From Candidatus Lloydbacteria bacterium RIFCSPHIGHO2_02_FULL_50_18 (lineage in GTDB: Bacteria > Patescibacteriota > Minisyncoccia > Phycocordibacterales > UBA6899), in the NCBI GenBank assembly GCA_001821395.1, contig MHLM01000001.1, positions 32,001 through 96,000 on the forward strand: 64,000 nucleotides of DNA. The letters run 5' to 3'. A program made the translations under genes and the position numbers. Positions 3,266 through 19,270 of the stretch are shown here, piece after piece. The notes beneath the pieces are model-generated. The model made no database searches. It worked only from the letters and a program-made list of their open reading frames with translations, and was not told where the DNA came from. How positions within the stretch are numbered: the stretch's first letter is position 1; every line of letters begins with the position of its first letter.

Positions 3266-3449
3266 AAAGATTCGATACAGAACACCGAAAGTAAGCCAAT
3301 GGGCTTGAGTGATTAGGATGGGCACACGGTGCGCAGCTACCCCTTGACAAGAATCTTTGGGGTGCTAAAACTATAAACAACCGAGTATTGGAACGAAACT
3401 GTCAATACCGAAGAAGTCATTATTTTTTGTTTCATTTATTTTTTATTTT

Positions 3450-4484
3450 ATGGGCAACGTCAGCATATCGTTCAAACCAAAAGTGGTCACAAAGCATTTC
3501 CTCGGAGTGTTGCCTCGCCGTGCCCAGGACGTTATCACCAAACGCTACGGTCTTGGTGCTGAAACAAAGAAAATGACACTCGAATCTATCGGTGAGAATT
3601 ACGGCATCACTCGTGAGCGTGTTCGTCAGATCGAAAATTTTGCATTGACGACGATCCGTAAATCCGACGCATTTAAGGAGGAGATGCCAACCTTCGATGA
3701 ATTGCGCAAAACCATGCTTTCAATGGGCTCCATCGTTCCCGAATCTGATTTTTTGGCGAGCGTGTCGAGTGATAAGTCAAATCAAAATCATATTCATTTC
3801 CTCCTGGTCTTGGGTGAACTTTTCACGAAACACAAGGAAGATGATGATTTCTCTCATCGCTGGAGCACAGACCCTGAGACTGCGGTCAAGGTTCATGATT
3901 CGTTGCGCAAGCTTTATGCTTCTCTTTCTGACGATGATCTTATCGAAGAATCAAAGATGATTGAGCGTTTCTTGAGCCATCTTAAGGAGGTTTCAGAAGA
4001 GTACAAGAACGAAGAGATATTGCGCCGTTGGCTCTCGCTGTCAAAGAAGATGGGCAAGAACCCGCTTGGTGAATGGGGTATGGCTTCATCGCCGAATGTT
4101 TCGGCGCGCGGAGTTCGCGATTACGCATTTCTGGTGTTACGAAAAAATGGTTCACCGATGCATTTCACTGAAGTGGCAAAAGCGATCGGTGCGCACTTTG
4201 ATAAGCAGGCACACATCGCAACGACACACAACGAACTAATCAAAGATAAGCGTTTCGTGCTTGTCGGGCGTGGACTCTATGCACTCTCTGAGTGGGGATA
4301 CTCGACCGGTGTTGTCCGTGATGTGATCGGTGAGATCATCAAGAAGAGCGGTCCGCTCACTCGCGAAGAGGTTGTCGACAAAGTGATGCGCGAACGTTAT
4401 GTGAAGCCCAACACCATTCTCGTGAATCTGCAGAATCCGAAATATTTCAAAAAGAATAAAGAAGGGAAGTACTCGCTTGTGTAG
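3450..4484 (+). CDS. Sigma-70 region-4 HTH domain protein with a C-terminal HARE-HTH-like winged helix
   Basis: The N-terminus (TLESIGENYGITRERVRQIENFAL) matches sigma-70 region 4. The C-terminus (FTEVAKAIGAHFD…GRGLYALSEWGY) looks like a HARE-HTH. No sigma region 2 is present. Confidence 0.65.
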   Translation: MGNVSISFKPKVVTKHFLGVLPRRAQDVITKRYGLGAETKKMTLESIGENYGITRERVRQIENFALTTIRKSDAFKEEMPTFDELRKTMLSMGSIVPESDFLASVSSDKSNQNHIHFLLVLGELFTKHKEDDDFSHRWSTDPETAVKVHDSLRKLYASLSDDDLIEESKMIERFLSHLKEVSEEYKNEEILRRWLSLSKKMGKNPLGEWGMASSPNVSARGVRDYAFLVLRKNGSPMHFTEVAKAIGAHFDKQAHIATTHNELIKDKRFVLVGRGLYALSEWGYSTGVVRDVIGEIIKKSGPLTREEVVDKVMRERYVKPNTILVNLQNPKYFKKNKEGKYSLV

Positions 4485-4490
4485 TCTAAA

Positions 4491-4516
4491 TGCCGTCCGA
4501 ATGGACGGCATTTTCG
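4491..4516 (+). terminator. Rho-independent terminator
   Basis: Hairpin tgccgtcc-gaat-ggacggca followed by ttttcg. Confidence 0.7.
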
Positions 4517-4552
4517 TTCCACAAATAGCAGATTTACGATATACTCAGTCTT

Positions 4553-5779
4553 ATGTTTGATGTGATGAGCGCGTTTTTCGATAAGCCTTTTTTCCATCTC
4601 TTGGGGCAGATGTATGACATTGCTGCAGTTTTGGCATTCATATGGGGGCCGCTCGTTGCTGTTTGGCTCGCGCAAAAACTTTGGCTTGATTATGTTCGAC
4701 TGGATTTCATTCGAAAGAATTACGAATTCATTCTTCTTGAGATCAAGCTGCCGCGTACGATCGACAAAACCCCAATGGCGATGGAACTCGTACTACAGGC
4801 GCTCCATCAGGGTGGTACGTACAATTGGTACGACAAATGGTGGCTCGGAAAAGTAAGACCATGGTTTTCTCTCGAGATCGTTTCGATCGAGGGGGAAGTA
4901 AGGCTCTTGGTGCGCACACCCTCAAAATTCAAAAAATTGATCGAGAGTCATATCTATGCGCAATATCCGGATATTGAGGTCGTTGAGGTGCAGGACTACA
5001 TTTCGCTTGCACCGTATCTTCATGAAAAGAACGAGTGGAGTATGTGGGGCTGTGAGTTTGCGTTGACGAAACCCGACCCTTATCCGATAAAGACCTATGT
5101 TGATTACGGGCTCGATAAGGCCGGAACAAAAGAAGAATTTAAGAGTGATCCGATTACCTCAATGATCGAATTTCTCGGTAGCATTGGACGAGGTCAGCAG
5201 ATCTGGATGCAGATACTCGTACAGGCAAACGGTGATCGATATGCAACGCCGGGAAAATGGTTCAAGAAGCACAATTGGAAAGAGGAGGGGGGGAGACTCA
5301 TCAAGGAGTTGCAGGCAAAATATTCCGGCATCGATGGTGCGAAACCCTCAAAGTCGGAACAGGAAGCGATAGCGGCCATTGAGCGCTCACTGTCAAAGAT
5401 AGGATTCGATTGCGGAATTCGCACTATCTATATTGCGCAGAAGGAACATTTTGACCCATCAAACATTGCGGGGATTACCGGTGCATTTCGACAATATAGT
5501 TCTCCGACCTTGAATGGCTTCAGGCCGAGTAACACTCCCGGATTTAGCTATCCGTGGCAAGATATCAATGAATGGCGGGAATCGAAGCAGAAAAGAAAAT
5601 TATTCGACGCATACGTTCGTCGCTCGTACTTTTACGCTCCATACAAGAAGACGCCGTTCGTGCTCAATGCTGAGGAGCTCGCAACGATCTATCACTTCCC
5701 CGGTGGTGTCGCGGAGACACCGACATTCTCGCGCGTCGAATCAAGAAAGGGTGAACCCCCGTCTAATCTCCCTATATAA
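4553..5779 (+). CDS. Conserved hypothetical protein with an N-terminal TM segment
   Basis: 408 aa with no recognised domain. A TATACT box lies 7 nt before the ATG, so the transcript is probably leaderless. It is packed 3 bp upstream of mltG. Confidence 0.55.
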   Translation: MFDVMSAFFDKPFFHLLGQMYDIAAVLAFIWGPLVAVWLAQKLWLDYVRLDFIRKNYEFILLEIKLPRTIDKTPMAMELVLQALHQGGTYNWYDKWWLGKVRPWFSLEIVSIEGEVRLLVRTPSKFKKLIESHIYAQYPDIEVVEVQDYISLAPYLHEKNEWSMWGCEFALTKPDPYPIKTYVDYGLDKAGTKEEFKSDPITSMIEFLGSIGRGQQIWMQILVQANGDRYATPGKWFKKHNWKEEGGRLIKELQAKYSGIDGAKPSKSEQEAIAAIERSLSKIGFDCGIRTIYIAQKEHFDPSNIAGITGAFRQYSSPTLNGFRPSNTPGFSYPWQDINEWRESKQKRKLFDAYVRRSYFYAPYKKTPFVLNAEELATIYHFPGGVAETPTFSRVESRKGEPPSNLPI

Positions 5780-5782
5780 TCC

Positions 5783-6814
5783 ATGATCGTAACACTCGAA
5801 AAGAAAGAGGAATTTGAGAATGGCGGAACGGCCATTCTTCCTCATTTGCCGGAAAAACGCACGCATCGGTTGTGGAAGATGGTCGGAGTTTTCATCGTAC
5901 TCCTCTGCGTAATCACCGTTGCTGCTGCTTGGTTCCTTGCTCTTTCACCGAGCGCTGAACGTAAAACGGTCACCGTGGAAATAGCGAGTGGAAGCGGCGT
6001 GAGGGGTATCGCATCCTTGCTTCACGATGAGGGTATCATCCGGTCTCCTCTTTTGTTTACGTTCCTTGCTCGCTATACGAAGGCAGATACGATGCTTGGC
6101 TCGGGAGTCTTTCAGTTTCAAATGCCTATGGATGTGTTTTCAGTGCTGACACAGGTGCGCTTGCATCGCTATGGAATAACGCGCTCGAAAATAACGATCC
6201 CTGAAGGGACACCGCTTTCGATTATGGCCGGGCTGTTTTCAGCATCCTTGCCTAATTTTGATAAGAGTAAGTTCCTTGACGAGACCGAGGGTATGGAGGG
6301 TTATCTATTCCCCGATACCTATTTTTTCTTTGTAAATGCCACCAGTGGACCCGTCATCGCAGTATTGTCGGACAATTTTATAAAAAAAACGGCGGTATTG
6401 AAGAGCGAGGCGGAGATCACTCATGGGAATTGGAATGAGGTGATAGTCATGGCGTCGCTTATCGAAGAGGAGGCGGTTACCGACATGGACCGAAAGATCA
6501 TTTCGGGTATCCTCTGGGCCCGGATCGCTCGAGGAATGAGGCTGCAAGTTGATGCGCCGTTCGTTTATTTTCTTGGAAAAGCTTCTTCCGAGATCACCAT
6601 CGATGATCTTTCTTATGATTCACCTTGGAACACCTATCGTTACAAGGGTCTTCCTCCCACACCCATCAGCAATCCCGGTCTTCTTGCTATCGACGCTGCA
6701 CTCCATCCGACTAAGACAAATTACCTGTTCTATCTGTCCGACAAAGAGGGCGTGATGCATTATGCAAAGACTTTTGAAGAGCACAAGTTGAATAAAGCGA
6801 AGTATCTATATTAA
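5783..6814 (+). CDS. mltG: Endolytic murein transglycosylase MltG/YceG
   Basis: N-terminal TM followed by a YceG-like domain (…DAPFVYFLGK…LPPTPISNPG…). Confidence 0.85.
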   Translation: MIVTLEKKEEFENGGTAILPHLPEKRTHRLWKMVGVFIVLLCVITVAAAWFLALSPSAERKTVTVEIASGSGVRGIASLLHDEGIIRSPLLFTFLARYTKADTMLGSGVFQFQMPMDVFSVLTQVRLHRYGITRSKITIPEGTPLSIMAGLFSASLPNFDKSKFLDETEGMEGYLFPDTYFFFVNATSGPVIAVLSDNFIKKTAVLKSEAEITHGNWNEVIVMASLIEEEAVTDMDRKIISGILWARIARGMRLQVDAPFVYFLGKASSEITIDDLSYDSPWNTYRYKGLPPTPISNPGLLAIDAALHPTKTNYLFYLSDKEGVMHYAKTFEEHKLNKAKYLY

Positions 6815-6824
6815 GATAGGCCAA

Positions 6825-8189
6825 ATGAATATCAACGCAATCACAAAGGCATATTTTATCGGAGTGGGAGGGATTGGTGTTTCCGCGATCGTGAGGCTTT
6901 TTGCGGGCAGGGGAATCATCGTTGCTGGATCGGACGGAACGTTTCCCGGTGCCGGCGCTCTTCCTTCAGGGCAGTATTTCGAGGGAGCAGACAGCAGTCA
7001 TGTTCCGTTTGACGCATCGGTTGTCATCTATTCGCCGGCGGTTCCTCCGACCAATGTTGAACGCATGCGCGCGGAAGAACTGGGGATTCCCACATTGTCA
7101 TATCCTGAGGCATTGGCGCTTGTGACGTCAGGCAGCGATACGATCGCGGTATCGGGAACGCACGGCAAGTCAACCACGACCGCACTGCTTGGAAAACTTT
7201 TTGAAGAAGGCGGCATGGATGCGTCAGTGATCGTTGGTGCGGAGGTTCCCGGCTGGGATCGCAATTATCACAAAGGTCGAGGAGATATGTTCATTGTGGA
7301 GGCATGCGAATACCGAAGGAATATGATGCACCTTTCGCCTCAGGCTATTCTGCTTACGAATCTTGAGCTCGACCACCCTGATTACTATCTTGATCTTGCC
7401 GATGTAAAGAGCGCATTCCGCGACTATATTAAAAAACTTTCCGGGGAAGATCTGCTTATTGTGAATAATGATGATGCAAATATTCGCGACGTGGTAAAAG
7501 GCTCAGATGCGATCATGGTGAGTTTCGGTGTGGGTGGCGGTGCAGATCTTATAGCGAGGAACATAAGAGAAGACGCGGCTGAACAATCATTCGAACTTAT
7601 ATGGAAAGGTACTTCAATAGGTGAGTTCTCAACGCCGCTCCCCGGTCTCTACAACGTCTACAACATTCTTGCAGCGACCGCAGTGTACCTTGCCTATGGA
7701 GGAAGTCGGGATCATATTCAGCCCGTGTTGACGACGTTCGTGGGCGTCGGAAGAAGATTTGAAGTCGTTGGCGAACTTGGTGCTGCTATCATCGTGTCTG
7801 ATTATGCGCACCATCCTACTGCGCTTACGGCGGTCGTTGATGCTGCGCTTTCACGCTACAGAGGAAAGAGTATCCTTACTGTTTTCCGTCCTCACCATCG
7901 CGAGCGTACGATCAAGCTGATGGACGAGTTTGTCGAAACCATGCTCGGTATTCCGCACTGTGTGCTTATCGAGATCTATGATGTCCCCGGGCGTGAAGAA
8001 AATACTCAGGTGAGTTCTCATGACATCATTGACCGCGTCTTCGCGCACGACCCGCAAAAAGATATTGTGTATGCAAAAGACCTTTCCGAAGCGGAAGGGG
8101 TCGTGAGGGGCAAAGCATCCCTGTTTGACGTCATTCTTATCGTCGGTGCGGGAGATGCAGATCAGCTTGCGAAGCGTCTTGTGTCGTAA
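6825..8189 (+). CDS. murC: UDP-N-acetylmuramate--L-alanine ligase
   Basis: Rossmann motif GVGGIGVSAIV and Mur-ligase P-loop GTHGKSTTTA. Confidence 0.9.
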   Translation: MNINAITKAYFIGVGGIGVSAIVRLFAGRGIIVAGSDGTFPGAGALPSGQYFEGADSSHVPFDASVVIYSPAVPPTNVERMRAEELGIPTLSYPEALALVTSGSDTIAVSGTHGKSTTTALLGKLFEEGGMDASVIVGAEVPGWDRNYHKGRGDMFIVEACEYRRNMMHLSPQAILLTNLELDHPDYYLDLADVKSAFRDYIKKLSGEDLLIVNNDDANIRDVVKGSDAIMVSFGVGGGADLIARNIREDAAEQSFELIWKGTSIGEFSTPLPGLYNVYNILAATAVYLAYGGSRDHIQPVLTTFVGVGRRFEVVGELGAAIIVSDYAHHPTALTAVVDAALSRYRGKSILTVFRPHHRERTIKLMDEFVETMLGIPHCVLIEIYDVPGREENTQVSSHDIIDRVFAHDPQKDIVYAKDLSEAEGVVRGKASLFDVILIVGAGDADQLAKRLVS

Positions 8190-8207
8190 ATTCAGCTATT
8201 ACCTTGT

Positions 8208-8765
8208 ATGAAAAATGATCGTCTTGCATTTGTTGACCTTGAAATGACCGGGCTTGATCCGTTCCGCCATGAGATCATAGAGATCGGGATCATACTCGCA
8301 AAACAAAAGCAGGGGGAGGACGGAAGGCGGACATTAGAACTGATATCCGAACACAATATTCAGCTCATTCCGCTCTATATTGAACATGCCGACCCAAAGG
8401 GGCTTGAGGTGAACAAGTATCACTCGCGCGATTGGAGCCTTGCCGTTCCGCAAAAGGATGGACTGTCGCACGCTGCCGAACTCCTGGACGGTACGGTCTT
8501 CGTTGCGCAGAACGTCGCGCTCGATTGGGCATTCTTGCATTATGCGGGCGATAAGGTTGGTATCAATTTTGATAAGCTCGTACATTATCACAAGCTCGAT
8601 CTTGCTTCTATGGCATTTGGAAAATTGTACCATGACCCAAAGCTCTTTAAATTCAGCCTGCGTGAAATGACGGAATATTTTCACGTAGTCAATCAAGACG
8701 CACACACGGCGCTCGCCGATGCGCGAGCAACGTTCGAAGTGTGTAAAAAATTGCTTGCACAATGA
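8208..8765 (+). CDS. DEDDh 3'-5' exonuclease (DnaQ/epsilon-like)
   Basis: Exo I motif FVDLEMTGLDP and a C-terminal H-x4-D (HTALADARAT). Confidence 0.8.
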   Translation: MKNDRLAFVDLEMTGLDPFRHEIIEIGIILAKQKQGEDGRRTLELISEHNIQLIPLYIEHADPKGLEVNKYHSRDWSLAVPQKDGLSHAAELLDGTVFVAQNVALDWAFLHYAGDKVGINFDKLVHYHKLDLASMAFGKLYHDPKLFKFSLREMTEYFHVVNQDAHTALADARATFEVCKKLLAQ

Positions 8766-8833
8766 TCTCACCACGGTTCGCTCCCGCCGAACGTTATACT
8801 TGAACGACACGCACGGTATGTTACTGTATCGTT

Positions 8834-9922
8834 ATGGCGCAGAAGATCCGAAAAGTCTTTGTGGGGATGAGCGGAGGAGTTGATTCCTCTGTGTCTGCTG
8901 CTCTGCTGCAAAGAGAAGGTTACGAGGTCGTTGGTGTTTTTATCAAGGTATGGCAAGCGGATTTTTTGCCGTGCACATGGAGAGAAGAGCGGCGTGATGC
9001 GATGCGCGCAGCCGCGCACCTTGGTATACCTTTGCTGACACTTGATTTGGAAAAGGAATACAAAGAGGGAGTTGTTGATTACATGATAAGGGAATACGGG
9101 GAGGGTCGTGTTCCTAATCCCGACGTCATGTGTAACAAACATGTGAAGTTCGGAGCATTTCTTGATTTTGCAAAAAAGAACGGCGCAGATGCTGTTGCGA
9201 CCGGACATTACGCTCGTGTAGAGCAAGACGACGTTGGGATGTTCCGCTTGTATAAGGGGGTTGACCAAGAAAAAGATCAATCATATTTCTTATGGACGCT
9301 CGATCAGGAGCAGCTTGCTCATGTCTTGTTTCCCATAGGGCATTTGGAGAAAAGTGAAGTACGACGACGAGCTCGAGAATTCGGTCTCTTGAATGCGCAA
9401 AAGAAAGATAGTCAGGGCCTCTGTTTTATGGGTACGATCGATATGAAGGATTTTCTCAAGCACTACCTGCATGCCGCTTCCGGTGCGGTTCTCGATACGA
9501 ACGGCGAGATCATCGGTACGCATGAAGGTGCGATGCTGTACACGATCGGGCAACGGCATGGATTTTTTACGACGAAACAGAGTGCGCATGAGTCGCCGTT
9601 ATTTGTTGTGGAGAAAGACATACAAAAAAACACCATCACTGTTGCTGCTGAGATGAACGTCGACTCAACACCGAATCATAGAGGCATCATACTATTGAAA
9701 GATCATAATTGGATCCCTGTTTCTCCCGACGTAGGGACACAAGTCGCTTGCGTTGCGCGTATTCGCTACAGAGGGGCGCTTCAACCCGCGGTCGTTCAAC
9801 GGGTCTCTATCGATCGGGTTTCGGTCACTCTATCGGTAAACGATGAATTTATCGCTGCGGGTCAGTCGATGGTATTTTACGAGGAGGATAGGTGTTTGGG
9901 AGGAGGGGTCATTGAGCGGTAG
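8834..9922 (+). CDS. mnmA: tRNA-specific 2-thiouridylase
   Basis: PP-loop VGMSGGVDSSV and MnmA-like central and C-terminal regions. Confidence 0.9.
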   Translation: MAQKIRKVFVGMSGGVDSSVSAALLQREGYEVVGVFIKVWQADFLPCTWREERRDAMRAAAHLGIPLLTLDLEKEYKEGVVDYMIREYGEGRVPNPDVMCNKHVKFGAFLDFAKKNGADAVATGHYARVEQDDVGMFRLYKGVDQEKDQSYFLWTLDQEQLAHVLFPIGHLEKSEVRRRAREFGLLNAQKKDSQGLCFMGTIDMKDFLKHYLHAASGAVLDTNGEIIGTHEGAMLYTIGQRHGFFTTKQSAHESPLFVVEKDIQKNTITVAAEMNVDSTPNHRGIILLKDHNWIPVSPDVGTQVACVARIRYRGALQPAVVQRVSIDRVSVTLSVNDEFIAAGQSMVFYEEDRCLGGGVIER

Positions 9923-9962
9923 GTTCTTGCGGAAGAGGTTGCGCGTGCGGTATCATTCACCA

Positions 9963-10442
9963 ATGAACAGAACAAATATTGCTCTTTTTGCATTGCTCGG
10001 GCTTATTTTTTGCTTTGCATTTTTGATTATCAGCGATCGCGATGTGCGATCTGAAGGAGGGCAGGCGGACGATAATTTAATAGTAGCTACTGATACAACA
10101 AATATGAACACAGCGATCGAGGGATTACAGATAGACATTCTTACTCCGGGTACCGGAGCCGGAGCGGAAAGCGGGCAGACGCTGATCGTTGATTATACCG
10201 GTATGTTGACCGATGGAACTATATTTGATTCAAGTATTCCTCGGGGGCAACCGTTCCCCGTGAATCTCGGCAGAGGTGAAGTGATCAGGGGCTGGGATCT
10301 TGGTCTTGTTGGTATGAAGGTCGGTGAAAAGCGGAAACTCACCATTTCTTCCGAGCTTGCGTACGGAAAAGAAGGATTTTCCGGGGTGATACCTCCGAAT
10401 GCAACACTCGTTTTCGAAATTACACTAAAAGCGATACAATAG
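9963..10442 (+). CDS. FKBP-type peptidyl-prolyl cis-trans isomerase, membrane-anchored
   Basis: Signal/TM anchor followed by an FKBP domain (DYTGMLTDGTIFDSS…GWDLGLVGMKVGEKRKL…ATLVFEI). The ATG at 9963 was chosen over the overlapping upstream alternative start. Confidence 0.8.
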   Translation: MNRTNIALFALLGLIFCFAFLIISDRDVRSEGGQADDNLIVATDTTNMNTAIEGLQIDILTPGTGAGAESGQTLIVDYTGMLTDGTIFDSSIPRGQPFPVNLGRGEVIRGWDLGLVGMKVGEKRKLTISSELAYGKEGFSGVIPPNATLVFEITLKAIQ

Positions 10443-10447
10443 GGCAT

Positions 10448-10897
10448 ATGATGAAATGGCCATTCTTTATCGTACTTGCTATCTCCGGGGGAATTCTTTG
10501 GTATCTGTACACGAACCTCGATAATTCCGCTCTTACGTCGAACGGCACCGCTACGAGCGGAATACAGAGCGTTATCGCGGTCACACATTCGTACCAGGAC
10601 GGCGTGCATCGTTTTTCGGGAGAGATCAAGCTTTCTCATTCGTGCTATTCGATCGATACTCAGACGGTTTCGGATCCCAAGTCGGAAGATCGATTGGTCA
10701 TAAAGATCACGACGACCGATCATTTCCTTGAACGCTCTACCTGCGCGAAATTTTCAACGCGCTACGAGTTCCAGGTTATCGCAGAAGCTCCTAAGGATGT
10801 CGCTTACACGTTACAGGTCGATGGCAAAGAGCTTCCGATACGCACGAGCAACGTGGATTGGAATAATCCGAACGCATTTTTTGTGAACCCGCGCTAA
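10448..10897 (+). CDS. Hypothetical secreted or membrane-anchored protein
   Basis: 149 aa with an N-terminal hydrophobic segment and no known domain. Confidence 0.45.
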   Translation: MMKWPFFIVLAISGGILWYLYTNLDNSALTSNGTATSGIQSVIAVTHSYQDGVHRFSGEIKLSHSCYSIDTQTVSDPKSEDRLVIKITTTDHFLERSTCAKFSTRYEFQVIAEAPKDVAYTLQVDGKELPIRTSNVDWNNPNAFFVNPR

Positions 10898-10898
10898 C

Positions 10899-11750
10899 AT
10901 GTACACTCCTTCGCATCCACCAATTTCGGTCATAAAAATGACCGGAGAGCGTGAAAATTGGGATAGAACCAAGCTTGAACGCTCGCTGCGTTTTGCAAAG
11001 GCATCGGACGAACTCATCAGAGAGATCGTTCTTCATATTGAAAAAGATCTTCATGACGGCATGCGCACGGTTGATATCTATGAACATGCATTCAATCTCT
11101 TAAAAAAATATCATCGGCCTGCGGCGGCTGAGTATAGTATCAAGCGCGCGATATTGCAGCTTGGTCCGTCCGGTTTCCCGTTCGAGCGCTTTGTTGCGCA
11201 CATTCTTGAAGCACAAGGATACAGTACACGCGTCGGGGTGATGGTGAGCGGCGTGTGTGTTACGCATGAAGTCGATGTCGTCGCGGAGAAGAAAGACGAA
11301 CGCATCCTCGTTGAGGCGAAATTTCACAACTCCGCTTCCATCAAGTCCGACGTAAAGGTCGCGCTCTATGTGCATGCGCGATTTCAGGATATTCAAAAGA
11401 GACTCGACCTTGAAGAGCAAACGGAGCGTTACACGCATGCATGGCTTATCACAAATACGGAATTTACCTCTCAGGCGATCCAGTACGGCAGTTGTGTGGG
11501 GCTTGCGATGACCGGGTGGAATTATCCGAAAGGGCATACGCTTCAAGACCTTATTCAGGCGACCCAAACCCATCCTGTTACCTGTATGACCACGCTCTCC
11601 GATAAGCAAAAAATCGATCTGCTCAATCATGGCACAGTGCTGGTCCGTGAGGTCGTAGATGATTCTTCTCGTTTGGCGAAAATCGGTATCGGGAAGCAGC
11701 AGATCGCCTCCATCGTGAGCGAGGGCAAAGCATTGTTCAAAGCTGCATAG
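10899..11750 (+). CDS. ATP-cone domain fused to a Mrr-like PD-(D/E)xK restriction-endonuclease domain
   Basis: An N-terminal ATP-cone (VIKMTGERENWDRTKLERSL…) is followed by an Mrr_cat-like core (GFPFERFVAHILEAQGY…EVDVVAEKKDERILVEAKFH). Confidence 0.7.
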   Translation: MYTPSHPPISVIKMTGERENWDRTKLERSLRFAKASDELIREIVLHIEKDLHDGMRTVDIYEHAFNLLKKYHRPAAAEYSIKRAILQLGPSGFPFERFVAHILEAQGYSTRVGVMVSGVCVTHEVDVVAEKKDERILVEAKFHNSASIKSDVKVALYVHARFQDIQKRLDLEEQTERYTHAWLITNTEFTSQAIQYGSCVGLAMTGWNYPKGHTLQDLIQATQTHPVTCMTTLSDKQKIDLLNHGTVLVREVVDDSSRLAKIGIGKQQIASIVSEGKALFKAA

Positions 11751-11825
11751 CACAGACCACTTTTGTCTGCGGTGTATTTCCTGATGTGTTGTATTCATTA
11801 TGGGGAGAGGTATAATGGCAAGCAT

Positions 11826-12341
11826 ATGGAATTATTTGCAGTATCGCAGTGGGAGATCATTCTTCGCCTCACTGTTGCGGTTGTGCTTGGGCTTGCGGTG
11901 GGTGCTGAACGTTCACGCGTCGGAAAACGAGCAGGGATGCGCACCTATGCGCTCGTATGTCTTGGGGCCGCACTCTTTATTGTTATTGCGGGGATGGTTT
12001 CGTTCCAGTATGCGAATACCTTTGTGTTCGACCCGCTGCGCGTCGCTTCCCAGGTCGTCGTTGGTATCGGGTTTCTGGGTGCAGGGATCATTTATGTTCA
12101 GCGTCAGGTTCTTACCGGACTTACGACAGCGGCAGGTCTTTGGGTAGTTGCGGGAGTCGGTGCGGCATGCGGATACGGACTTTATGTTGTCGCAGCCTAC
12201 GTCACATTTCTGACATTAGTGATCTTTGAGGGTCTCTGGTATGTCGAGGAGCGTTTTATTCGTATCGCTCGAACAGATGTGGAAGAGGATTTTATTCAAA
12301 GTGCTACGCATAATCGGCCTCACCATGAAGAAGAAAGTTAG
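11826..12341 (+). CDS. MgtC/SapB family membrane protein
   Basis: MELFAVSQWEIILRLTVAVVLGLAVGAERS… is a typical MgtC N-terminus. Start set at ATG 11826. Confidence 0.75.
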   Translation: MELFAVSQWEIILRLTVAVVLGLAVGAERSRVGKRAGMRTYALVCLGAALFIVIAGMVSFQYANTFVFDPLRVASQVVVGIGFLGAGIIYVQRQVLTGLTTAAGLWVVAGVGAACGYGLYVVAAYVTFLTLVIFEGLWYVEERFIRIARTDVEEDFIQSATHNRPHHEEES

Positions 12342-13191
12342 AAAAGCGGTCATTGCGGTTGCCGGAAGCGGCACGCGTTTTCTGCCGGCGACAAAAGCTC
12401 AGCCAAAGGAGATGCTTCCTATCGTCGACAAACCGATCGTTCAATATGTTGTTGAAGAATTGGTCAGCGCGGGTATCACGGATATCATTCTTGTTACAAA
12501 GTGGGACAAAAAAACGCTTGAGGACCACTTTGATCGCTCGATCGAGCTTGAGCATTCACTTGAAGAGGCGGGAAAGTTAAAGTTGCTCCATGACATTCGC
12601 AAGATCTCATCAATGGCGAACTTCATTTATGTTCGTCAAAAAGGTCCCTATGGGAATGGTACGCCCATTCTCTCCGCCGCGAGCTTGTTGAACGATGAGC
12701 CGTTCGTATTCGCTTGGGGTGACGACCTTGTTCTGTCGAAAACTTCATTCACAAAACAGCTTATCGAAAATTATGAGATCAATGCGTGCCCCGTTATCGG
12801 AGTGCAGAAAGTTGCAAAGGATCATGTGAATCGATACGGTATCGTCAAATTGAAGAAGGGTACTCGTGAGATGGAGGATGTGATAGAAAAACCAAAGATC
12901 GAGGATGCGCCGTCCCAGTTGGCTCAGTTCGGGAGAATGATCCTTACTCCGGAGATCATACACATCTTACAAAAGACCAAACTCGGAAAAGGCGGTGAGC
13001 TATGGGTTACCGACGCCATCAGCGAATATATCAAGCAGGGGGGTAAGTTCATGGTCGAAGAGGTGAAAGATGGAAAGTGGCTTACGACCGGAGACCCGCT
13101 TAACTATCTAAAGGCCATGGTGGAGTATGCGATCGTTCGTGATGATATCGGTGATGAATTCAAGGCATTTCTGAGGGACCTTCATCTCTAG
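12325..13191 (+). CDS. galU: UTP--glucose-1-phosphate uridylyltransferase
   Basis: AVIAVAGSGTRFLPATKAQPKEMLPIVDKP motif. It overlaps the end of the MgtC gene by 17 nt. Confidence 0.85.
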   Translation: MKKKVRKAVIAVAGSGTRFLPATKAQPKEMLPIVDKPIVQYVVEELVSAGITDIILVTKWDKKTLEDHFDRSIELEHSLEEAGKLKLLHDIRKISSMANFIYVRQKGPYGNGTPILSAASLLNDEPFVFAWGDDLVLSKTSFTKQLIENYEINACPVIGVQKVAKDHVNRYGIVKLKKGTREMEDVIEKPKIEDAPSQLAQFGRMILTPEIIHILQKTKLGKGGELWVTDAISEYIKQGGKFMVEEVKDGKWLTTGDPLNYLKAMVEYAIVRDDIGDEFKAFLRDLHL

Positions 13192-13294
13192 TTTATCCTC
13201 ACCCATTCACCTTGTCACGAGCCGAACCCCCTGTCTTCGTTCCTCGGCATAACGGTGCTCGGTCAGCGCGATCCCAATCAGCTATACATTTTTT

Positions 13295-14311
13295 GTGATA
13301 ACTCATACAACAAAACCCATAGTCGGACTGCTTCCTGTCGCGCTTGCACTCATGGGAAATATTTTTGTTGCCATTATTAAATTTTTTGGTTTTACAATAT
13401 CTGGTTCTGGTGCGATGTTCTCAGAATCAGTACATAGCGTCGCGGATACAGTGAACCAATCACTTCTCCTGTTCGGAATTCGTCGCTCAAGACGTCGCCC
13501 AGATGAAGGATTTTCATACGGATATGGAAAGGAGCGTTTCTTTTGGGCGCTCATATCCGCTTGTGGAATATTTTTTCTTGGAGCCGGTGTGACCGTCTAT
13601 CATGGAATAGAACTGCTCATCACGAAGGAAATGCCCGAGCTGTCCCCGATGGTATTCATCATTCTGTTTGTCTCTTTTGTCGTTGAGTCGTTCACACTAT
13701 TCATTGCATGGCGTGAGTTAAAACGGAGTAACGTCGACCGTACATTTGCCGAGGCACTACTGCATGGTGATCCGAGTACCATTGCCGTTTTGTATGAGGA
13801 TGGAGTCGCCGTTCTTGGAGTGCTCGTTGCGCTCGTGAGTTTGACCCTGACGGTACTCACTGGCAATGCGATCTGGGATGCCGTTGGCTCCATTCTTGTT
13901 GGCTTATTGCTTGGCGTCGTGGCCATAATTCTTATTCAAAAAAATCACAAGTATCTGATCGGTATGAATATTCCCGATGAGATTAGGATGCGCATCATTG
14001 AAATACTGGAAGCGGATCCGACCATCGATCGCGTACTTGATTTCAAGTCGTCAGTGCTTGATGTTGGGATTTACCACATAAAATGTGAAATAGAATTCAA
14101 CGGGTCTGCACTCATGTACGAGGTCGCCAAGAGGGGTGAGTTACGCGATGAATATGATTCAATTCGCGATGATTATTCCGAGTTTTTAAAACTCGTTGTT
14201 GGATATTTTGGTCGGGTCCCAAGACTCATGGGTTCTCACATCGATAGGCTTGAAAAGATCGTTCAAAAAGAGATACCTGAGATCAGGCATATCGATATTG
14301 AGATCAACTAG
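13295..14311 (+). CDS. Cation diffusion facilitator family transporter
   Basis: HSVADT motif in TM2, six TM helices, and a C-terminal cytoplasmic domain. The start is uncertain (GTG at 13295 or ATG at 13352). Confidence 0.8.
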   Translation: MITHTTKPIVGLLPVALALMGNIFVAIIKFFGFTISGSGAMFSESVHSVADTVNQSLLLFGIRRSRRRPDEGFSYGYGKERFFWALISACGIFFLGAGVTVYHGIELLITKEMPELSPMVFIILFVSFVVESFTLFIAWRELKRSNVDRTFAEALLHGDPSTIAVLYEDGVAVLGVLVALVSLTLTVLTGNAIWDAVGSILVGLLLGVVAIILIQKNHKYLIGMNIPDEIRMRIIEILEADPTIDRVLDFKSSVLDVGIYHIKCEIEFNGSALMYEVAKRGELRDEYDSIRDDYSEFLKLVVGYFGRVPRLMGSHIDRLEKIVQKEIPEIRHIDIEIN

Positions 14312-14385
14312 GATGGCGACACGCGAGGGTTGCGGGGCCGAACTTTTTCGCTTTTAGTAAGATATTTTCGTATACTAACAGTGTT

Positions 14386-15855
14386 ATGACACGACTTTTT
14401 TTGGGGGCATTGAAATTCATTCTCGTCGTTATGGTATTTACCGCATCGTATCAGTGGTGGAGACCTCTACCCGATACGCTATTGCCGTTTTCGAATGAAT
14501 ACAATGTTCCGGATTCTAGCGTAAAATTTTTTGCAGACTATACCTACGTTGACAAGAATGGAGAACGAAAGACCGAACAAGAGATCTGGGATCGGGCATT
14601 TACGCTTATCGGCGGCGCCTCTCATTATATGCTGTTTGATCTTTCCCTTTTTAATGATTTCCAGTCTCAGGTGCCGGAAACAACGAGGGCTCTCTCTTAT
14701 GAACTTGCACAGAAGATAAGCGATAAGCTTTCCGTCGATCGACACATCGCCGTAGCACTCATTGCGGATCCTGTTAATACGCTGTATGGCGGAATGCTTT
14801 CGGCACAGCAAACAATATTAAGAAAGGCGGGTGTCGTGATCATTGAACCGGATCTCACCGTGTTTCGTGATCCAAACCTTTTGTTCTCATCGCTGTGGAG
14901 ACCATTCTTTTCATGGTGGGGGAATTCGACTACTGGCGGATGGCTTCCTCATCCCTACCAATCCGTGGGGAGTAAAATTACATTGCGCACCTGGCTTCAC
15001 GTACTTAACCTGAAGGCAGACGAACGCAATCTGTTTGTCGTTGATCAAACGGTGGGAAAAGGAGTGAAAACATCATCTCAAAAAATGGTCAGTTTCATAA
15101 CGTCCGCTGTTCTGGCTGACGGCGCAAGTGCCGATGGAAATGTCGCACTCGAGGTCCGTGACGGTATCTGGAAAAACGTCGTAGAAAATGAACGACGCCT
15201 CGCTCAAGTGTCCGGCAGAGCGATTGTGAGCTATGATTCTGCGTTGACACTTGATGAAACAGGCCCCGTTCGGGTTCAGCTTATCTCGGAAACTATGATC
15301 AAAGATGCGATACTACGACTGCTTGCGGGGGCAAAGCACGGTGACATGCTGCAGCTTGTGCTGCATCATTTAAGTGAGCGTGATATCATCGCGGCGATCA
15401 TCGACGCTTCCAATCGGGGGGCGATCATCCGCATCATCCTCGATCCCGGACTATCGGAAGCAAGATTTGACGTGTACGGTTTGCCTAATCGTCCCGTCGC
15501 CAAAGAGTTGGTCAACAAGTCTCTGTCGGGTATCACGATACGTTGGTGCGATACGCACCGTGAGCAGTGTCGGGCGAACTTTTTTTCCGGTCATTCCGCA
15601 TCGTCAACGTTTATGATGCTTGGTTCGGCAGATTTTACCAGAAGAGATTTGGACGGCTTCAATCTTACGACCGATATCCTCGCGTCTGCTGACGCTCCCT
15701 TCACTGCATGGAACGATGGAGCAAAATATTTTAACCGTATGTGGGACAATGAGGATGGATCATTTACGACTTCATACGATGTATATGCCGACAATACGCT
15801 CTGGAGATCTTCCGTGTATCGAATGATGGAGCGCACGGGCCTGAATACCTTTTAG
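14386..15855 (+). CDS. Membrane-anchored hypothetical protein, possibly a degenerate PLD-like fold
   Basis: N-terminal TM. The C-terminal segment HSASSTFMMLGSADFTRRDL resembles an HKD motif with K→A and N→D changes. The assignment is weak. Confidence 0.5.
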   Translation: MTRLFLGALKFILVVMVFTASYQWWRPLPDTLLPFSNEYNVPDSSVKFFADYTYVDKNGERKTEQEIWDRAFTLIGGASHYMLFDLSLFNDFQSQVPETTRALSYELAQKISDKLSVDRHIAVALIADPVNTLYGGMLSAQQTILRKAGVVIIEPDLTVFRDPNLLFSSLWRPFFSWWGNSTTGGWLPHPYQSVGSKITLRTWLHVLNLKADERNLFVVDQTVGKGVKTSSQKMVSFITSAVLADGASADGNVALEVRDGIWKNVVENERRLAQVSGRAIVSYDSALTLDETGPVRVQLISETMIKDAILRLLAGAKHGDMLQLVLHHLSERDIIAAIIDASNRGAIIRIILDPGLSEARFDVYGLPNRPVAKELVNKSLSGITIRWCDTHREQCRANFFSGHSASSTFMMLGSADFTRRDLDGFNLTTDILASADAPFTAWNDGAKYFNRMWDNEDGSFTTSYDVYADNTLWRSSVYRMMERTGLNTF

Positions 15856-15862
15856 TCACTCG

Positions 15863-15871
15863 TGCTATAAT
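15863..15871 (+). promoter_or_regulatory. Extended -10 (TGcTATAAT) upstream of pyrH
   Basis: TGcTATAAT sits 12 nt before the ATG at 15884. Confidence 0.5.
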
Positions 15872-15883
15872 CGCAACAACAAT

Positions 15884-16588
15884 ATGAAGATACTCATTAA
15901 GCTGTCCGGGGAAAGTTTGAGCGGATCAAACAAAGAAGGAGATAGGCAGTTCAGCGAACCAACGCTTGGTAGTATTGTCCTGCACATTAAGATGCTTCAG
16001 GGTGACGGGCATGAGGTAGCGCTCGTCGTCGGTGGGGGTAATCTGTTCCGCGGACATGAACTGACGGGTAAGCTCGCCATTGAACGACCGACCGCAGACT
16101 ACATTGGCATGCTCGCAACAGTGCAGAATGCGTTGATCCTTCGTGATTATTTCGAATCAAAAGGCGTTGAGACGCGGGTCTCGTCGGCCATCACAATGCC
16201 TCAGATCTGTGAGGGGTACATCCCCAAGCGCGTCGAAAGGCACATGAAAAAGGGACGCGTTGTTATTTTTGCTGCAGGTCTTGGTGCTCCATATTTTACG
16301 ACCGATTCAACGTCCGTGCAGCGCGCGCTTGAGATGAAGGCTGACATGCTTATCATGGCGAAGAACGGCGTCGACGGTCTCTATACCGCAGACCCGGATA
16401 CTGATAAATCTGCGGTATTCATAAAAGAAACTACGGCGAGTGAAGTGCTTGAGCGAGACCTAAAGGCTGCCGATCAGTCAGCTATCGCGCTTGCGAAAGA
16501 ACATGGACTTTTGATCAAGGTGATCGGAGTTCCCGATATCGCACGAGCGCTTGATCCGGAAGTCGGTTCATTGATAAGACCCATATAA
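15884..16588 (+). CDS. pyrH: Uridylate kinase
   Basis: MKILIKLSGESL…VVGGGNLFRG matches a UMP-kinase fold. Confidence 0.9.
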   Translation: MKILIKLSGESLSGSNKEGDRQFSEPTLGSIVLHIKMLQGDGHEVALVVGGGNLFRGHELTGKLAIERPTADYIGMLATVQNALILRDYFESKGVETRVSSAITMPQICEGYIPKRVERHMKKGRVVIFAAGLGAPYFTTDSTSVQRALEMKADMLIMAKNGVDGLYTADPDTDKSAVFIKETTASEVLERDLKAADQSAIALAKEHGLLIKVIGVPDIARALDPEVGSLIRPI

Positions 16589-16601
16589 ATGATTGCATCA
16601 C

Positions 16602-17153
16602 ATGGAAACAGATATTGATCAAGCAATAGCAATGATCGAGGGAGGGGGCGTAGGAGTGCTTCCAACAGACACGCTCTACGGGCTCGTCGGTTCGGCATTC
16701 AGTGCGGATGCCGTGGATCGCATTTATGACTTGAAGCAGCGCGACCCGGAGAAGCCGCTCATCGTGCTTATTTCGGATATTCTCCAACTCGAGCAATTCG
16801 GTGTCATTGTTTCTGATGCACTGATCGCGCAGCTTGAAACGTATTGGCCGGGACCATACTCGATCATACTCCCGACGGCGGATGAGCAGTTTGAATATCT
16901 TCATCGTGGAACGAATGCAATCGCATTTCGTTTGCCCGACGATGAGCAGCTTGTAGCGGTAATCACCCAAGCTGGACCGATTGTTGCCCCATCAGCGAAT
17001 GTTGAAGACATGCCTCCTTCAGGAACCATCGAAGAGGCACGCTCATATTTCGGTACAGACGTAGACTTTTATGTCGACGGTGGTGAATTACGCGGTAAAC
17101 CGTCAACGATCATTTTTTTTGACGGAGACGAGGTCGTCGTCGAGCGAGAGTAA
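16602..17153 (+). CDS. tsaC: L-threonylcarbamoyladenylate synthase (Sua5/YrdC/TsaC family)
   Basis: YrdC domain (LPTDTLYGLVGSAF…KQRDPEKPLIVLI). Start set at ATG 16602, because the tracked ORF begins at a TTG. Confidence 0.8.
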   Translation: METDIDQAIAMIEGGGVGVLPTDTLYGLVGSAFSADAVDRIYDLKQRDPEKPLIVLISDILQLEQFGVIVSDALIAQLETYWPGPYSIILPTADEQFEYLHRGTNAIAFRLPDDEQLVAVITQAGPIVAPSANVEDMPPSGTIEEARSYFGTDVDFYVDGGELRGKPSTIIFFDGDEVVVERE

Positions 17154-17203
17154 CGTTTACGGTTTTACCTATCATTTCCGGCAAAGAAAAATTGTCGGGT
17201 AAG

Positions 17204-17232
17204 TTGGCAACACGGACCAATCTGGTTATAAT
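17204..17232 (+). promoter_or_regulatory. Sigma-70-like promoter (TTGGCA-17-TATAAT) for alaS; probably leaderless
   Basis: Near-consensus -35 and -10 boxes with a 17-bp spacer. The -10 box ends 7 nt before ATG 17240. Confidence 0.65.
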
Positions 17233-17239
17233 CCTATCC

Positions 17240-19200: not shown

Positions 19201-19270
19201 AAGCTAGCGAACCAAAGTCGGCGCGTGAGGTAAATACCCACAGTAGTACGAGTATTCTTTGTGTCAGGCG

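What the first reader, a model, noticed from the sequence alone, without database searches (positions are those of the whole stretch)
10899..11750. ATP-cone domain fused to a Mrr-like PD-(D/E)xK nuclease
An allosteric nucleotide-sensing ATP-cone (as in NrdR and RNR) sits directly on a restriction-endonuclease-fold domain. That arrangement suggests a nuclease gated by (d)NTP levels, which could act in defence or in nucleotide-pool surveillance. It stands alone among housekeeping genes (mnmA, FKBP, MgtC, galU), with no methyltransferase partner.
Basis: partly seen in the sequence, partly recalled or inferred. Interest (0 to 1): 0.5.

Follow-up and report, generated by a model that had tools for sequence, protein, structure and literature searches.

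The report
ATP-cone fused to AF1548-type nuclease
The gene really does encode an adenine-nucleotide sensor domain joined to an intact restriction-enzyme-type nuclease, but it is a vertically inherited core gene of a large, catalogued and unstudied family, and its contexts point to nucleic-acid turnover, not phage defence.

Summary
ORF 10899..11750 (+, 283 aa) has three domains: an ATP-cone (aa ~9-86), an Mrr/AF1548-type PD-(D/E)xK nuclease (aa ~88-205) and an AF1548-like C-terminal helical domain (aa ~210-281). Both Pfam domains pass their curated cut-offs. PDB 1Y88 matches aa 97-279 at E=3.6e-34, and the AlphaFold model has pLDDT 95.7. The catalytic residues E96, D126, E139 and K141 are invariant across divergent homologues. 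Most residues that align with the E. coli RNR cone nucleotide contacts are kept; the Arg10 equivalent is lost.

The defence reading is not supported. In 39 related Patescibacteria loci the gene sits in the same housekeeping block downstream of mnmA and diverges at the rate of its neighbours. It has no methyltransferase or defence-gene partners. It has no relatives in 50,697 phage records or in IMG/VR, and only 2 full-length hits in 72,556 plasmids.

In Bacteroidota and Chlamydiota the family often (13 of 30 loci) heads an operon with a beta-CASP ribonuclease, usually followed by an AMP-phosphorylase-like enzyme and a PRPP-synthetase-like enzyme.

Best reading: a Mg-dependent nuclease gated by ATP/dATP that serves nucleic-acid turnover or nucleotide salvage. 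The architecture is already named in UniRef and RefSeq ("ATP cone domain-containing protein"). I found no functional study.

The parts
10899..11750 (+). Complete gene, 283 aa plus stop codon: ATP-cone / PD-(D/E)xK nuclease / AF1548-like C-terminal domain
   Evidence: ORF listing. There are 1350 homologues at E<=1e-3, nearly all about 280 aa, and 1097 clusters at 50% identity. The start at 10899 is supported because residues 9-13 (ISVIK) are conserved in homologues. The 270-aa public model of the near-identical Lloydbacteria protein starts at M14 and loses K13.
10923..11156 (+). ATP-cone domain (aa ~9-86): beta-hairpin plus four helices
   Evidence: Pfam PF03477 above its cut-off. Profile hits to NrdD and NrdR cones. 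hhalign to the E. coli NrdA cone at 94% probability, E=1.4e-7. Fold match to NrdR at 1.8 A over 81 residues. Secondary structure from the model.
10935..10937 (+). Codon of K13, which aligns with E. coli NrdA Lys9 (phosphate contact of the cone hairpin). The next codon, M14, aligns with Arg10; this position is Ala/Ser/Met across the family.
   Evidence: Alignment. Contact residues are taken from PMC12662201. K13 is conserved in at least 90% of sequences.
11160..11513 (+). Conserved linker GPSGFPFE plus the Mrr/AF1548-type PD-(D/E)xK nuclease core (aa ~88-205)
   Evidence: Pfam PF04471 above its cut-off. 1Y88 at E=3.6e-34. Foldseek 1Y88 TM 0.82, then Cdn1, MspJI, AspBHI, Can2 and XisH. G89, G92, F95 and E96 are invariant.
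11184..11186 (+). Codon of E96, the helix-1 acidic residue of the active site
   Evidence: Invariant in alignments A1 and A2. Codon gag read.
11274..11276 (+). Codon of D126, the 'D' of PD-(D/E)xK
   Evidence: Invariant. It aligns with the Asp of the EIDVV motif of AF1548 in the alignment. The GOS paper PMC1821046 predicted D38/E51/K53 as the catalytic residues of AF1548.
11313..11321 (+). Codons of E139-A140-K141, the '(D/E)xK' motif
   Evidence: Invariant. Codons gag gcg aaa read.
11526..11741 (+). AF1548-like C-terminal helical domain (aa ~210-281), probably a helix-hairpin-helix type nucleic-acid binding module
   Evidence: Pfam PF22357 is sub-threshold here but precomputed for many homologues. 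A profile of this domain finds 1Y88 residues 125-197 at E=7e-12. The domain model has pLDDT 90. Its next-best fold matches are HhH domains of RadA/Rad51, Hel308 and BAF (TMq 0.5-0.6), but their E-values exceed 1.

Best explanation
The gene encodes a three-domain enzyme. An N-terminal ATP-cone senses adenine nucleotides (ATP, dATP or both). A central AF1548/Mrr-type PD-(D/E)xK domain with a complete E-D-ExK metal site cleaves nucleic acid. A C-terminal AF1548-like helical domain, probably of the helix-hairpin-helix type, holds the substrate without sequence specificity.

By analogy with how ATP-cones work in RNRs and NrdR, nucleotide occupancy of the cone probably changes the enzyme's conformation or oligomeric state and so switches cleavage on or off.

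The physiological role is most likely nucleic-acid turnover or nucleotide salvage tied to the cell's ATP/dATP status, not restriction of foreign DNA. In this Lloydbacteria-like (Patescibacteria) genome it is a vertically inherited core gene.

Shown: the domain composition, the intact catalytic residues, a largely intact nucleotide pocket, vertical inheritance, and the absence of a defence context. Inferred: nucleotide binding, gating, the substrate and the physiological role.
For: - Domains and fold.
- The catalytic residues E96, D126, E139 and K141 are invariant across 34-85% identity homologues.
- Cone positions that align with E. coli NrdA contacts are kept or conservatively replaced: K13=Lys9, E19=Glu15, K25=Lys21, L26=Ile22, Y61=His59, with T57=Thr55 also conserved. 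K13 and K25 are at least 90% conserved or invariant.
- The linker GPSGFPFE between cone and nuclease is nearly invariant and contains catalytic E96. This fits tight coupling between the two domains.
- The architecture is fixed across the best 150 of 1097 clusters.
- Housekeeping synteny and a housekeeping divergence rate.
- No phage or viral relatives, and 2 full-length hits among 72,556 plasmids.
- In non-Patescibacteria the gene is immediately followed by a beta-CASP RNase in 13 of 30 loci. An archaeal-type, AMP-phosphorylase-like nucleoside phosphorylase and a PRPP-synthetase-like gene then follow, with overlapping or abutting reading frames in Pontibacter and Criblamydia.
- From my own knowledge, not tested here: Patescibacteria generally lack de novo nucleotide synthesis and must scavenge nucleic acids.
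Against: - There are no biochemical data for any member. I found no paper linking the ATP-cone to a nuclease.
- The Arg10-equivalent phosphate contact is missing (Met here; Ala/Ser in the family), so ligand identity and affinity are uncertain.
- AF1548 itself has no room for a cone: its match to the nuclease begins at residue 22 of a 199-residue chain. The nuclease module can therefore exist ungated.
- In Patescibacteria the neighbours form a generic housekeeping array and say little about function.
- The salvage-type operon occurs in only about 40% of the non-Patescibacteria loci and is absent from this window.
- The substrate, DNA or RNA, is unknown.
Confidence: 0.45

Rival explanations
1. 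A DNA repair or recombination nuclease, structure-specific in the manner of Hjc or NucS, whose activity is tied to ATP/dATP levels and so to replication or energy state.
For: There is a weak Hjc Pfam hit (16.3 bits), and JGI names some homologues 'Holliday junction resolvase-like predicted endonuclease'. The C-terminal domain resembles HhH modules of RadA/Rad51 and Hel308 (not significant). In other Paceibacteria the gene is followed by a family-4 uracil-DNA glycosylase (18 of 47 loci) and a Cas4-like PD-(D/E)xK nuclease (9 of 47). Its core-gene behaviour fits DNA maintenance.
Against: The Hjc hit is below its cut-off of 21.1. The UDG and Cas4-like adjacency lies inside a long co-directional housekeeping array, and neither gene is next to the target in this window. 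The non-Patescibacteria operon partners are RNA and nucleotide enzymes, not repair enzymes.
Confidence: 0.2
2. A stand-alone defence nuclease, either Type IV-like restriction or abortive infection, that fires when phage infection perturbs ATP/dNTP pools.
For: It has a Mrr-type catalytic domain, and its fold neighbours include the defence nucleases MspJI, AspBHI, Can2, Cdn1 and Avs3. There is a weak PADLOC hit to candidate PDC-S02 (E=6.8e-5, aa 68-132 only). A few non-Patescibacteria neighbours hit defence models (at most 2 of 106 for any one model).
Against: The syntenic position is conserved and the divergence rate is housekeeping-like. No methyltransferase family is among the 25 commonest Pfam families of the non-Patescibacteria neighbours, and none is among the recurrent neighbour clusters I annotated. 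No DNA-modification reader domain was detected. There were no hits in 50,697 phage records or in IMG/VR, and 2 full-length hits in 72,556 plasmids. The most common partners outside Patescibacteria are a beta-CASP RNase, P-type ATPases and Usp proteins.
Confidence: 0.1
3. A non-catalytic, NrdR-like nucleotide-dependent DNA-binding regulator that uses the nuclease fold and the C-terminal domain only to bind DNA.
For: NrdR is the precedent for an ATP-cone controlling DNA binding through oligomerisation. The N-terminal domain matches NrdR cones.
Against: The full catalytic set E-D-ExK is invariant across the family, which would not be expected for a purely binding role. There is no zinc ribbon. 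The NrdR model scores 13 bits against a cut-off of 125. RNR families are not among the 25 commonest Pfam families of the neighbours, nor among the recurrent neighbour clusters I annotated.
Confidence: 0.05

Closest known systems
AF1548 of Archaeoglobus fulgidus (PDB 1Y88; Pfam Mrr_cat plus AF1548-like_C), a structural-genomics protein of unknown function
   Same: The nuclease core and C-terminal domain are homologous: E=3.6e-34 over aa 97-279, 32% identity in the structural alignment, TM 0.82. It has the same D...ExK motif, predicted catalytic in PMC1821046.
   Different: AF1548 has no ATP-cone: the match begins at residue 22 of a 199-residue chain. No function is known for either protein.
ATP-cone regulatory domains of ribonucleotide reductases (NrdA, NrdD) and of the repressor NrdR
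   Same: Same fold and Pfam family. Most residues that align with the nucleotide contacts are conserved. The expected logic is that ATP/dATP occupancy changes quaternary structure and output.
   Different: The output domain here is a nuclease, not a reductase or a zinc-ribbon DNA binder. The Arg10 equivalent is lost, and the His59 equivalent is Tyr. There is no genomic link to nrd genes.
Ligand-gated PD-(D/E)xK nucleases of CRISPR/CBASS signalling (Can2/Card1, Cdn1)
   Same: A small-nucleotide sensor domain is fused to a PD-(D/E)xK nuclease. They are fold neighbours of the nuclease half.
   Different: Their sensor is a CARF domain that binds cyclic oligoadenylates, and they sit in defence loci. 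This protein uses an ATP-cone and sits in housekeeping or metabolic loci.
Mrr and other Type IV, modification-dependent restriction enzymes (Mrr, MspJI, AspBHI)
   Same: The catalytic domain belongs to the Mrr_cat family, and no methyltransferase partner is needed.
   Different: No winged-helix or SRA-type reader of modified DNA was detected. The gene is vertically inherited, syntenic and slowly evolving, and is absent from mobile elements.

Membership tests
ATP-cone domain (Pfam PF03477) | Sequence match above the curated threshold | tested here: met
   30.5 bits against a cut-off of 25.8, aa 10-81. The family profile finds NrdD and NrdR cones. hhalign gives 94% probability against the E. coli NrdA cone.
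ATP-cone domain (Pfam PF03477) | Beta-hairpin plus four-helix fold | tested here: met
   The model has strands at 10-12 and 18-20, followed by helices. It superposes on NrdR at 1.8-1.9 A over 80-82 residues.
ATP-cone domain (Pfam PF03477) | Nucleotide-contact residues (E. coli Lys9, Arg10, Glu15, Lys21, Ile22, His59) | tested here: inconclusive
   K13, E19, K25, L26 and Y61 align with Lys9, Glu15, Lys21, Ile22 and His59. The Arg10 position is Met here and Ala/Ser in the family. Five of six positions are kept or conservatively replaced.
ATP-cone domain (Pfam PF03477) | Binds ATP and/or dATP and changes the oligomeric state | not testable with these tools
   This needs ITC/DSF and SEC-MALS on purified protein.
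PD-(D/E)xK nuclease, Mrr_cat family (PF04471) | Sequence match above the curated threshold | tested here: met
   35.5 bits against a cut-off of 21, aa 92-197.
PD-(D/E)xK nuclease, Mrr_cat family (PF04471) | Catalytic E...D...(D/E)xK residues present and conserved | tested here: met
   E96, D126, E139 and K141 are invariant in 27 close and 40 divergent homologues.
PD-(D/E)xK nuclease, Mrr_cat family (PF04471) | Restriction-endonuclease-like alpha/beta core | tested here: met
   The order helix 94-105, strands 109-117, 122-131 and 134-141, helix 152-171, strand 180-185 fits the core. Fold hits are 1Y88, MspJI, AspBHI, Can2, Cdn1 and XisH.
PD-(D/E)xK nuclease, Mrr_cat family (PF04471) | Metal-dependent cleavage of nucleic acid | not testable with these tools
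   This needs an enzyme assay.
AF1548 family (PDB 1Y88) | Homology over both the nuclease and the C-terminal domain | tested here: met
   E=3.6e-34 over aa 97-279. TM 0.82 normalised to 1Y88. The C-terminal profile alone finds 1Y88 at E=7e-12.
Type IV (Mrr-like) restriction enzyme or R-M system | A domain that reads modified DNA, or a cognate methyltransferase | tested here: not met
   No further Pfam domain was found in the protein. There is no methyltransferase among the window neighbours I scanned. No methyltransferase family is among the 25 commonest Pfam families of 106 neighbours of non-Patescibacteria homologues, and none is among the recurrent Patescibacteria neighbour clusters I annotated.
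Anti-phage defence gene | Match to known defence models, location in variable defence islands, patchy or mobile distribution | tested here: not met
   Only a weak partial PADLOC hit. Neighbour PADLOC hits reach at most 2 of 106 for any model. Synteny is conserved in 37 of 47 Patescibacteria loci. The divergence rate matches the flanking core genes. There are 0 phage or viral hits and 2 full-length plasmid hits.
NrdR transcriptional repressor | N-terminal zinc ribbon plus ATP-cone; match to TIGR00244 | tested here: not met
   TIGR00244 scores 13.2 bits against a cut-off of 124.65, and only over the cone. There is no zinc ribbon.
Archaeal Holliday junction resolvase Hjc (PF01870) | Sequence match above the curated threshold | tested here: not met
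   16.3 bits against a cut-off of 21.1.

The most novel reading that the evidence does not exclude
The ATP-cone nuclease is the energy- or nucleotide-sensing entry gate of a nucleic-acid catabolic and salvage route. When ATP/dATP occupancy of the cone changes, it opens up nucleic acid. A beta-CASP RNase trims the fragments to mononucleotides. An archaeal-type AMP-phosphorylase-like enzyme then releases ribose-1,5-bisphosphate and base, and a PRPP-synthetase-like enzyme feeds the sugar back into metabolism. That would give Bacteroidota and Chlamydiota a bacterial counterpart of the archaeal pentose-bisphosphate pathway, with the gating nuclease alone retained as a core scavenging enzyme in nucleotide-auxotrophic Patescibacteria.
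Probability: 0.2. Interest if true: 0.7.

Novelty: new variant of a known kind. Interest (0 to 1): 0.42.

Why it matters
ATP-cones have been characterised in ribonucleotide reductases and in NrdR. The literature searches here found no study of one attached to a nuclease. This family would be a case of that switch controlling a nuclease. It is large: at least 593 species genomes and 1097 clusters at 50% identity. It is a conserved core gene in a major branch of the ultra-small Patescibacteria, whose dependence on scavenged nucleotides is a central open question. If cleavage is gated by ATP/dATP, that would link nucleotide-pool sensing directly to nucleic-acid breakdown. For annotation, the practical point is that "restriction endonuclease" is a misleading name for these genes.

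Tried and rejected
- **Defence context.** PADLOC on the protein gave a weak partial hit only. PADLOC on 106 neighbours of non-Patescibacteria homologues gave sporadic hits. Phage, plasmid and IMG/VR searches gave 0, 2 full-length and 0 hits. Rejected.
- **RNR or NrdR association.** No nrd families are among the 25 commonest neighbour families or the recurrent clusters I annotated. The NrdR model scores far below its cut-off. Rejected.
- **Literature.** Searches for ATP-cone with restriction endonuclease, nuclease, endonuclease or Mrr found no paper on this architecture. A search for the Bacteroidota operon found nothing. The AF1548 search gave only the GOS paper's prediction that it is a nuclease.
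- **Operon signals.** The promoter and terminator scan around the gene found nothing above the shuffled expectation.
- **Operon partners in this window.** A search for beta-CASP, thymidine-phosphorylase and PRPP-synthetase homologues in the window found none.
- **C-terminal domain.** Fold search of the isolated domain gave HhH-type DNA-binding modules after 1Y88, but at non-significant E-values. I treat this as suggestive only.
- **Antisense ORF.** The 241-aa ORF at 11100..11825 (- strand) was not examined. I assumed it is a shadow of the conserved + strand gene.
Full report

Yes. Window 10899..11750 (+) is an uninterrupted 283-codon ORF with an ATG start.

- Pfam places an ATP-cone (PF03477) at aa 10-81 (30.5 bits, curated cut-off 25.8). 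It places an Mrr_cat restriction-endonuclease domain (PF04471) at aa 92-197 (35.5 bits, cut-off 21). It also gives a sub-threshold AF1548-like_C match at aa 236-278.
- The strongest single piece of evidence is a sequence match to the solved structure of Archaeoglobus AF1548 (PDB 1Y88). The match has E=3.6e-34 and covers aa 97-279, that is, the nuclease and the C-terminal domain together.
- An AlphaFold2 model built on 40 divergent homologues is very confident (pLDDT 95.7, pTM 0.91).
- Foldseek against the PDB returns 1Y88 first (TM 0.82). PD-(D/E)xK nucleases follow (Cdn1, MspJI, AspBHI, Can2, XisH). For the N-terminal third it returns NrdR and E. coli NrdA cones (1.8 A over about 81 residues).
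- A profile of the N-terminal domain alone finds NrdD and NrdR cones in the PDB. It aligns to the E. coli NrdA cone with 94% probability.

The protein therefore has three domains, not two: ATP-cone (aa ~9-86), nuclease (aa ~88-205) and AF1548-like C-terminal domain (aa ~210-281).

**2. Are the functional residues intact?**

D126 lies in EVDVV and E139-A-K141 in VEAKF. E96 lies in the linker motif GPSGFPFE. All four residues are invariant in 27 close homologues (59-83% identity) and in 40 representatives of 50%-identity clusters (34-49% identity).

For the cone I mapped the residues onto E. coli NrdA. I took the contact residues from PMC12662201.

| This protein | E. coli NrdA | Role in E. coli | Conservation in the family |
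|---|---|---|---|
| K13 | Lys9 | phosphates | at least 90% |
| M14 | Arg10 | phosphates | lost; Ala/Ser/Met |
| E19 | Glu15 | adenine N6 | invariant among close homologues; consensus Glu in divergent ones |
| K25 | Lys21 | phosphates, site 2 | invariant |
| L26 | Ile22 | senses the 2'-OH | invariant among close homologues |
| T57 | Thr55 | not named as a contact in the cited text | at least 90% |
| Y61 | His59 | ribose 3'-OH of dATP | invariant among close homologues; consensus Tyr in divergent ones |

The pocket is largely preserved but not canonical. Nucleotide binding is likely. The ligand preference cannot be read from sequence.

**3. How big is the family, and is the architecture fixed?**

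A word-indexed search found 1350 homologues. An exhaustive HMMER search of 1.84 billion representatives found 1097 clusters at E<=1e-3 and 439 at E<=1e-30. Nearly all of the best 150 are about 280 aa and aligned from residue ~10 to ~280.

A scan of one genome per species found relatives in at least 593 species. Among the best 80, most are Patescibacteria of many named lineages. These include Lloyd-, Yonath-, Zambryski-, Taylor-, Kaiser-, Magasanik-, Jorgensen- and Wildermuthbacteria, Gracilibacteria and Chisholmbacteria. The rest include many Bacteroidota (Pontibacter, Kaistella, Cyclobacterium, Chitinophaga, Flavobacteriaceae), Balneolales and Nitrospinaceae.

The window protein clusters at 90% identity or more with a Candidatus Lloydbacteria protein that UniRef calls "ATP-cone domain-containing protein". 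RefSeq uses the same name in Pontibacter and Criblamydia. The architecture is therefore already catalogued. NCBIfam has no model for the family. I found no functional study. The only relevant text is the 2007 GOS paper, which predicted AF1548 to be a nuclease.

**4. Genomic context in Patescibacteria**

The window carries this order of genes: LeuRS, a sigma70-region-4/HARE-HTH protein, a DUF8128-like protein, YceG, MurC, an RNase T-like exonuclease, MnmA, FKBP, a 149-aa membrane-anchored hypothetical, the target, MgtC, a GalU-like transferase, a cation-efflux protein, a PLD-like protein, PyrH, Sua5 and AlaRS. All are on the + strand.

- Homologues at 62-68% identity on contigs of 100-270 kb have exactly this order.
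- I called ORFs in 77 genome loci, clustered them by all-against-all BLASTP and annotated the cluster representatives.
- In 37 of 47 Patescibacteria loci the target lies just downstream of the YceG/MnmA block, and AlaRS follows within a few genes.
- Between the target and AlaRS the occupants vary: MgtC, a family-4 uracil-DNA glycosylase (18 loci), a Cas4-like PD-(D/E)xK nuclease (9 loci) or M3 peptidases.
- No methyltransferase or recognisable defence gene is among the recurrent clusters I annotated.
- Across 39 syntenic loci the target is on average 49% identical to the window protein. This compares with 54% for MnmA, 41% for YceG, 48% for DUF8128 and 57% for AlaRS.

The gene is vertically inherited and evolves like its housekeeping neighbours. 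That is not how defence genes usually behave.

**5. Genomic context outside Patescibacteria**

In 30 loci, mostly Bacteroidota, the gene is immediately followed by a beta-CASP metallo-beta-lactamase RNase in 13 loci. A thymidine-phosphorylase-family gene and a ribose-phosphate-pyrophosphokinase-like gene then follow in 7 loci. Usp proteins and P-type ATPases flank the cluster.

The same four-gene unit occurs in the two full-length plasmid hits, a Pontibacter actiniarum megaplasmid and a Criblamydia sequanensis (Chlamydiota) plasmid. In Criblamydia the four reading frames overlap or abut, and in Pontibacter they are 5-12 bases apart. In Criblamydia it lies between glycogen phosphorylase and phosphoketolase on one side and acetate kinase on the other.

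NCBIfam assigns the partners as follows:

- The phosphorylase belongs to the archaeal-type family (TIGR02645, 602 bits). It scores just under the AMP-phosphorylase cut-off (TIGR03327, 506 bits against 535).
- The RNase is aCPSF1/Cas14-like.
- The third gene belongs to a PRPP-synthetase subfamily.

PADLOC hits among 106 neighbours are sporadic, at most 2 for any model. No methyltransferase family is among the 25 commonest Pfam families. This context points to RNA and nucleotide catabolism or salvage under energy stress. None of these partners is present in the window.

**6. Mobility**

There is no relative in 50,697 phage records or in 2.9 million IMG/VR contigs. There are two full-length hits in 72,556 plasmids.

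**7. The C-terminal domain**

Modelled alone (pLDDT 90), it matches 1Y88 (TMq 0.75). The next matches are the helix-hairpin-helix modules of RadA/Rad51, Hel308 and BAF, with reasonable geometry (TMq 0.5-0.6, rmsd 1.9-2.6 A for the RadA/Rad51 and Hel308 modules, about 4 A for BAF) but non-significant E-values. I take this as a hint of sequence-independent nucleic-acid binding, not as a demonstration.

**8. Most likely mechanism**

Shown:
- A cone with a mostly intact nucleotide pocket.
- A nearly invariant linker that carries one catalytic residue.
- A complete PD-(D/E)xK site.
- A third helical domain.
- Core-gene behaviour in Patescibacteria.
- An operon with RNA and nucleotide enzymes elsewhere.

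Inferred:
- ATP and/or dATP binding to the cone alters conformation or oligomerisation and switches cleavage. This is the established behaviour of cones in RNRs and NrdR (PMC12662201 and the NrdR structures listed).
- The enzyme serves nucleic-acid turnover or nucleotide salvage. This role is attractive for Patescibacteria, which from my own knowledge generally lack de novo nucleotide synthesis.

I give this about 0.45. The rivals are a nucleotide-regulated repair or recombination nuclease (0.2), a defence nuclease (0.1) and a non-catalytic regulator (0.05).

**9. Comparison with known systems**

- It is a member of the AF1548 family and carries bona fide ATP-cone and Mrr_cat domains.
- It is not an NrdR: it has no zinc ribbon, and TIGR00244 scores far below its cut-off.
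- It is not a demonstrable Type IV restriction enzyme: no modified-DNA reader domain was detected, and it is not mobile.
- It is not a Can2/Card1-type effector, because the sensor domain is different. It may work like one in the general sense of a nucleotide-sensor-gated PD-(D/E)xK nuclease.

**10. Verdict**

The domain-fusion inference is reasonable.

The architecture is catalogued but, as far as I could find, uncharacterised. I rate it as a new variant of a known kind (ligand-gated nuclease; ATP-cone switch) and of moderate interest at 0.42. A more ambitious reading is a gated nucleic-acid-to-pentose salvage pathway. I give that a probability of about 0.2, and it would be considerably more interesting if true.

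Noticed in passing
window 10899-10940; protein P0271: The public 270-aa gene model of the near-identical Candidatus Lloydbacteria protein starts at the internal Met14. That start removes the first beta-strand of the ATP-cone and the conserved phosphate-binding Lys13. Conservation of residues 9-13 in homologues supports the upstream ATG at 10899.
   Followed up: partly
L085 1972-6597 (Pontibacter actiniarum plasmid); L086 8001-12608 (Criblamydia sequanensis plasmid); also L030, L042, L046, L055, L059, L066, L077: A conserved four-gene unit, with overlapping or abutting frames in Criblamydia and 5-12 base gaps in Pontibacter: ATP-cone nuclease, beta-CASP RNase (aCPSF1/Cas14-like), archaeal-type AMP-phosphorylase-like nucleoside phosphorylase, and PRPP-synthetase-like protein. 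Usp proteins and P-type ATPases often flank it. In Criblamydia it lies between phosphoketolase and glycogen phosphorylase on one side and acetate kinase on the other. It looks like an undescribed nucleic-acid or nucleotide catabolic module.
   Followed up: partly
window 776-19090, and loci L005-L082: A long same-strand gene block is conserved across many Paceibacteria-type genomes at only 41-57% protein identity: LeuRS, sigma70-region-4/HARE-HTH protein, DUF8128, YceG, (MurC), MnmA, target, ..., AlaRS. That is unusually stable synteny.
   Followed up: partly
window 3450-4484 (+): A 344-aa protein combines a sigma-70 region 4 domain at the N-terminus with a HARE-HTH domain. It has no other sigma regions and is conserved at this position in about half of the Patescibacteria loci.
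   Followed up: no
window 10448-10897 (+): A 149-aa ORF with an N-terminal hydrophobic helix and no Pfam match ends one base before the target's start codon. It is conserved only in the closest (Lloydbacteria-like) loci, so it is probably not a functional partner.
   Followed up: partly
L010, L024, L048, L060, L061, L073-L075 (downstream of the target): In other Paceibacteria a Cas4-like PD-(D/E)xK nuclease with N- and C-terminal cysteine pairs and a family-4 uracil-DNA glycosylase follow the target directly. Neither lies next to the target in this window.
   Followed up: partly
window 57325-62016 (+): A HlyD-like membrane-fusion protein and a 1030-aa AcrB-type RND transporter lie next to each other.
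   Followed up: no
window 19259-22096 (+): Two large ORFs (407 and 534 aa) after AlaRS have no Pfam match. Two unannotated clusters (c6 and c7) recur after AlaRS in the Patescibacteria loci, but I did not test whether these ORFs belong to them.
   Followed up: no
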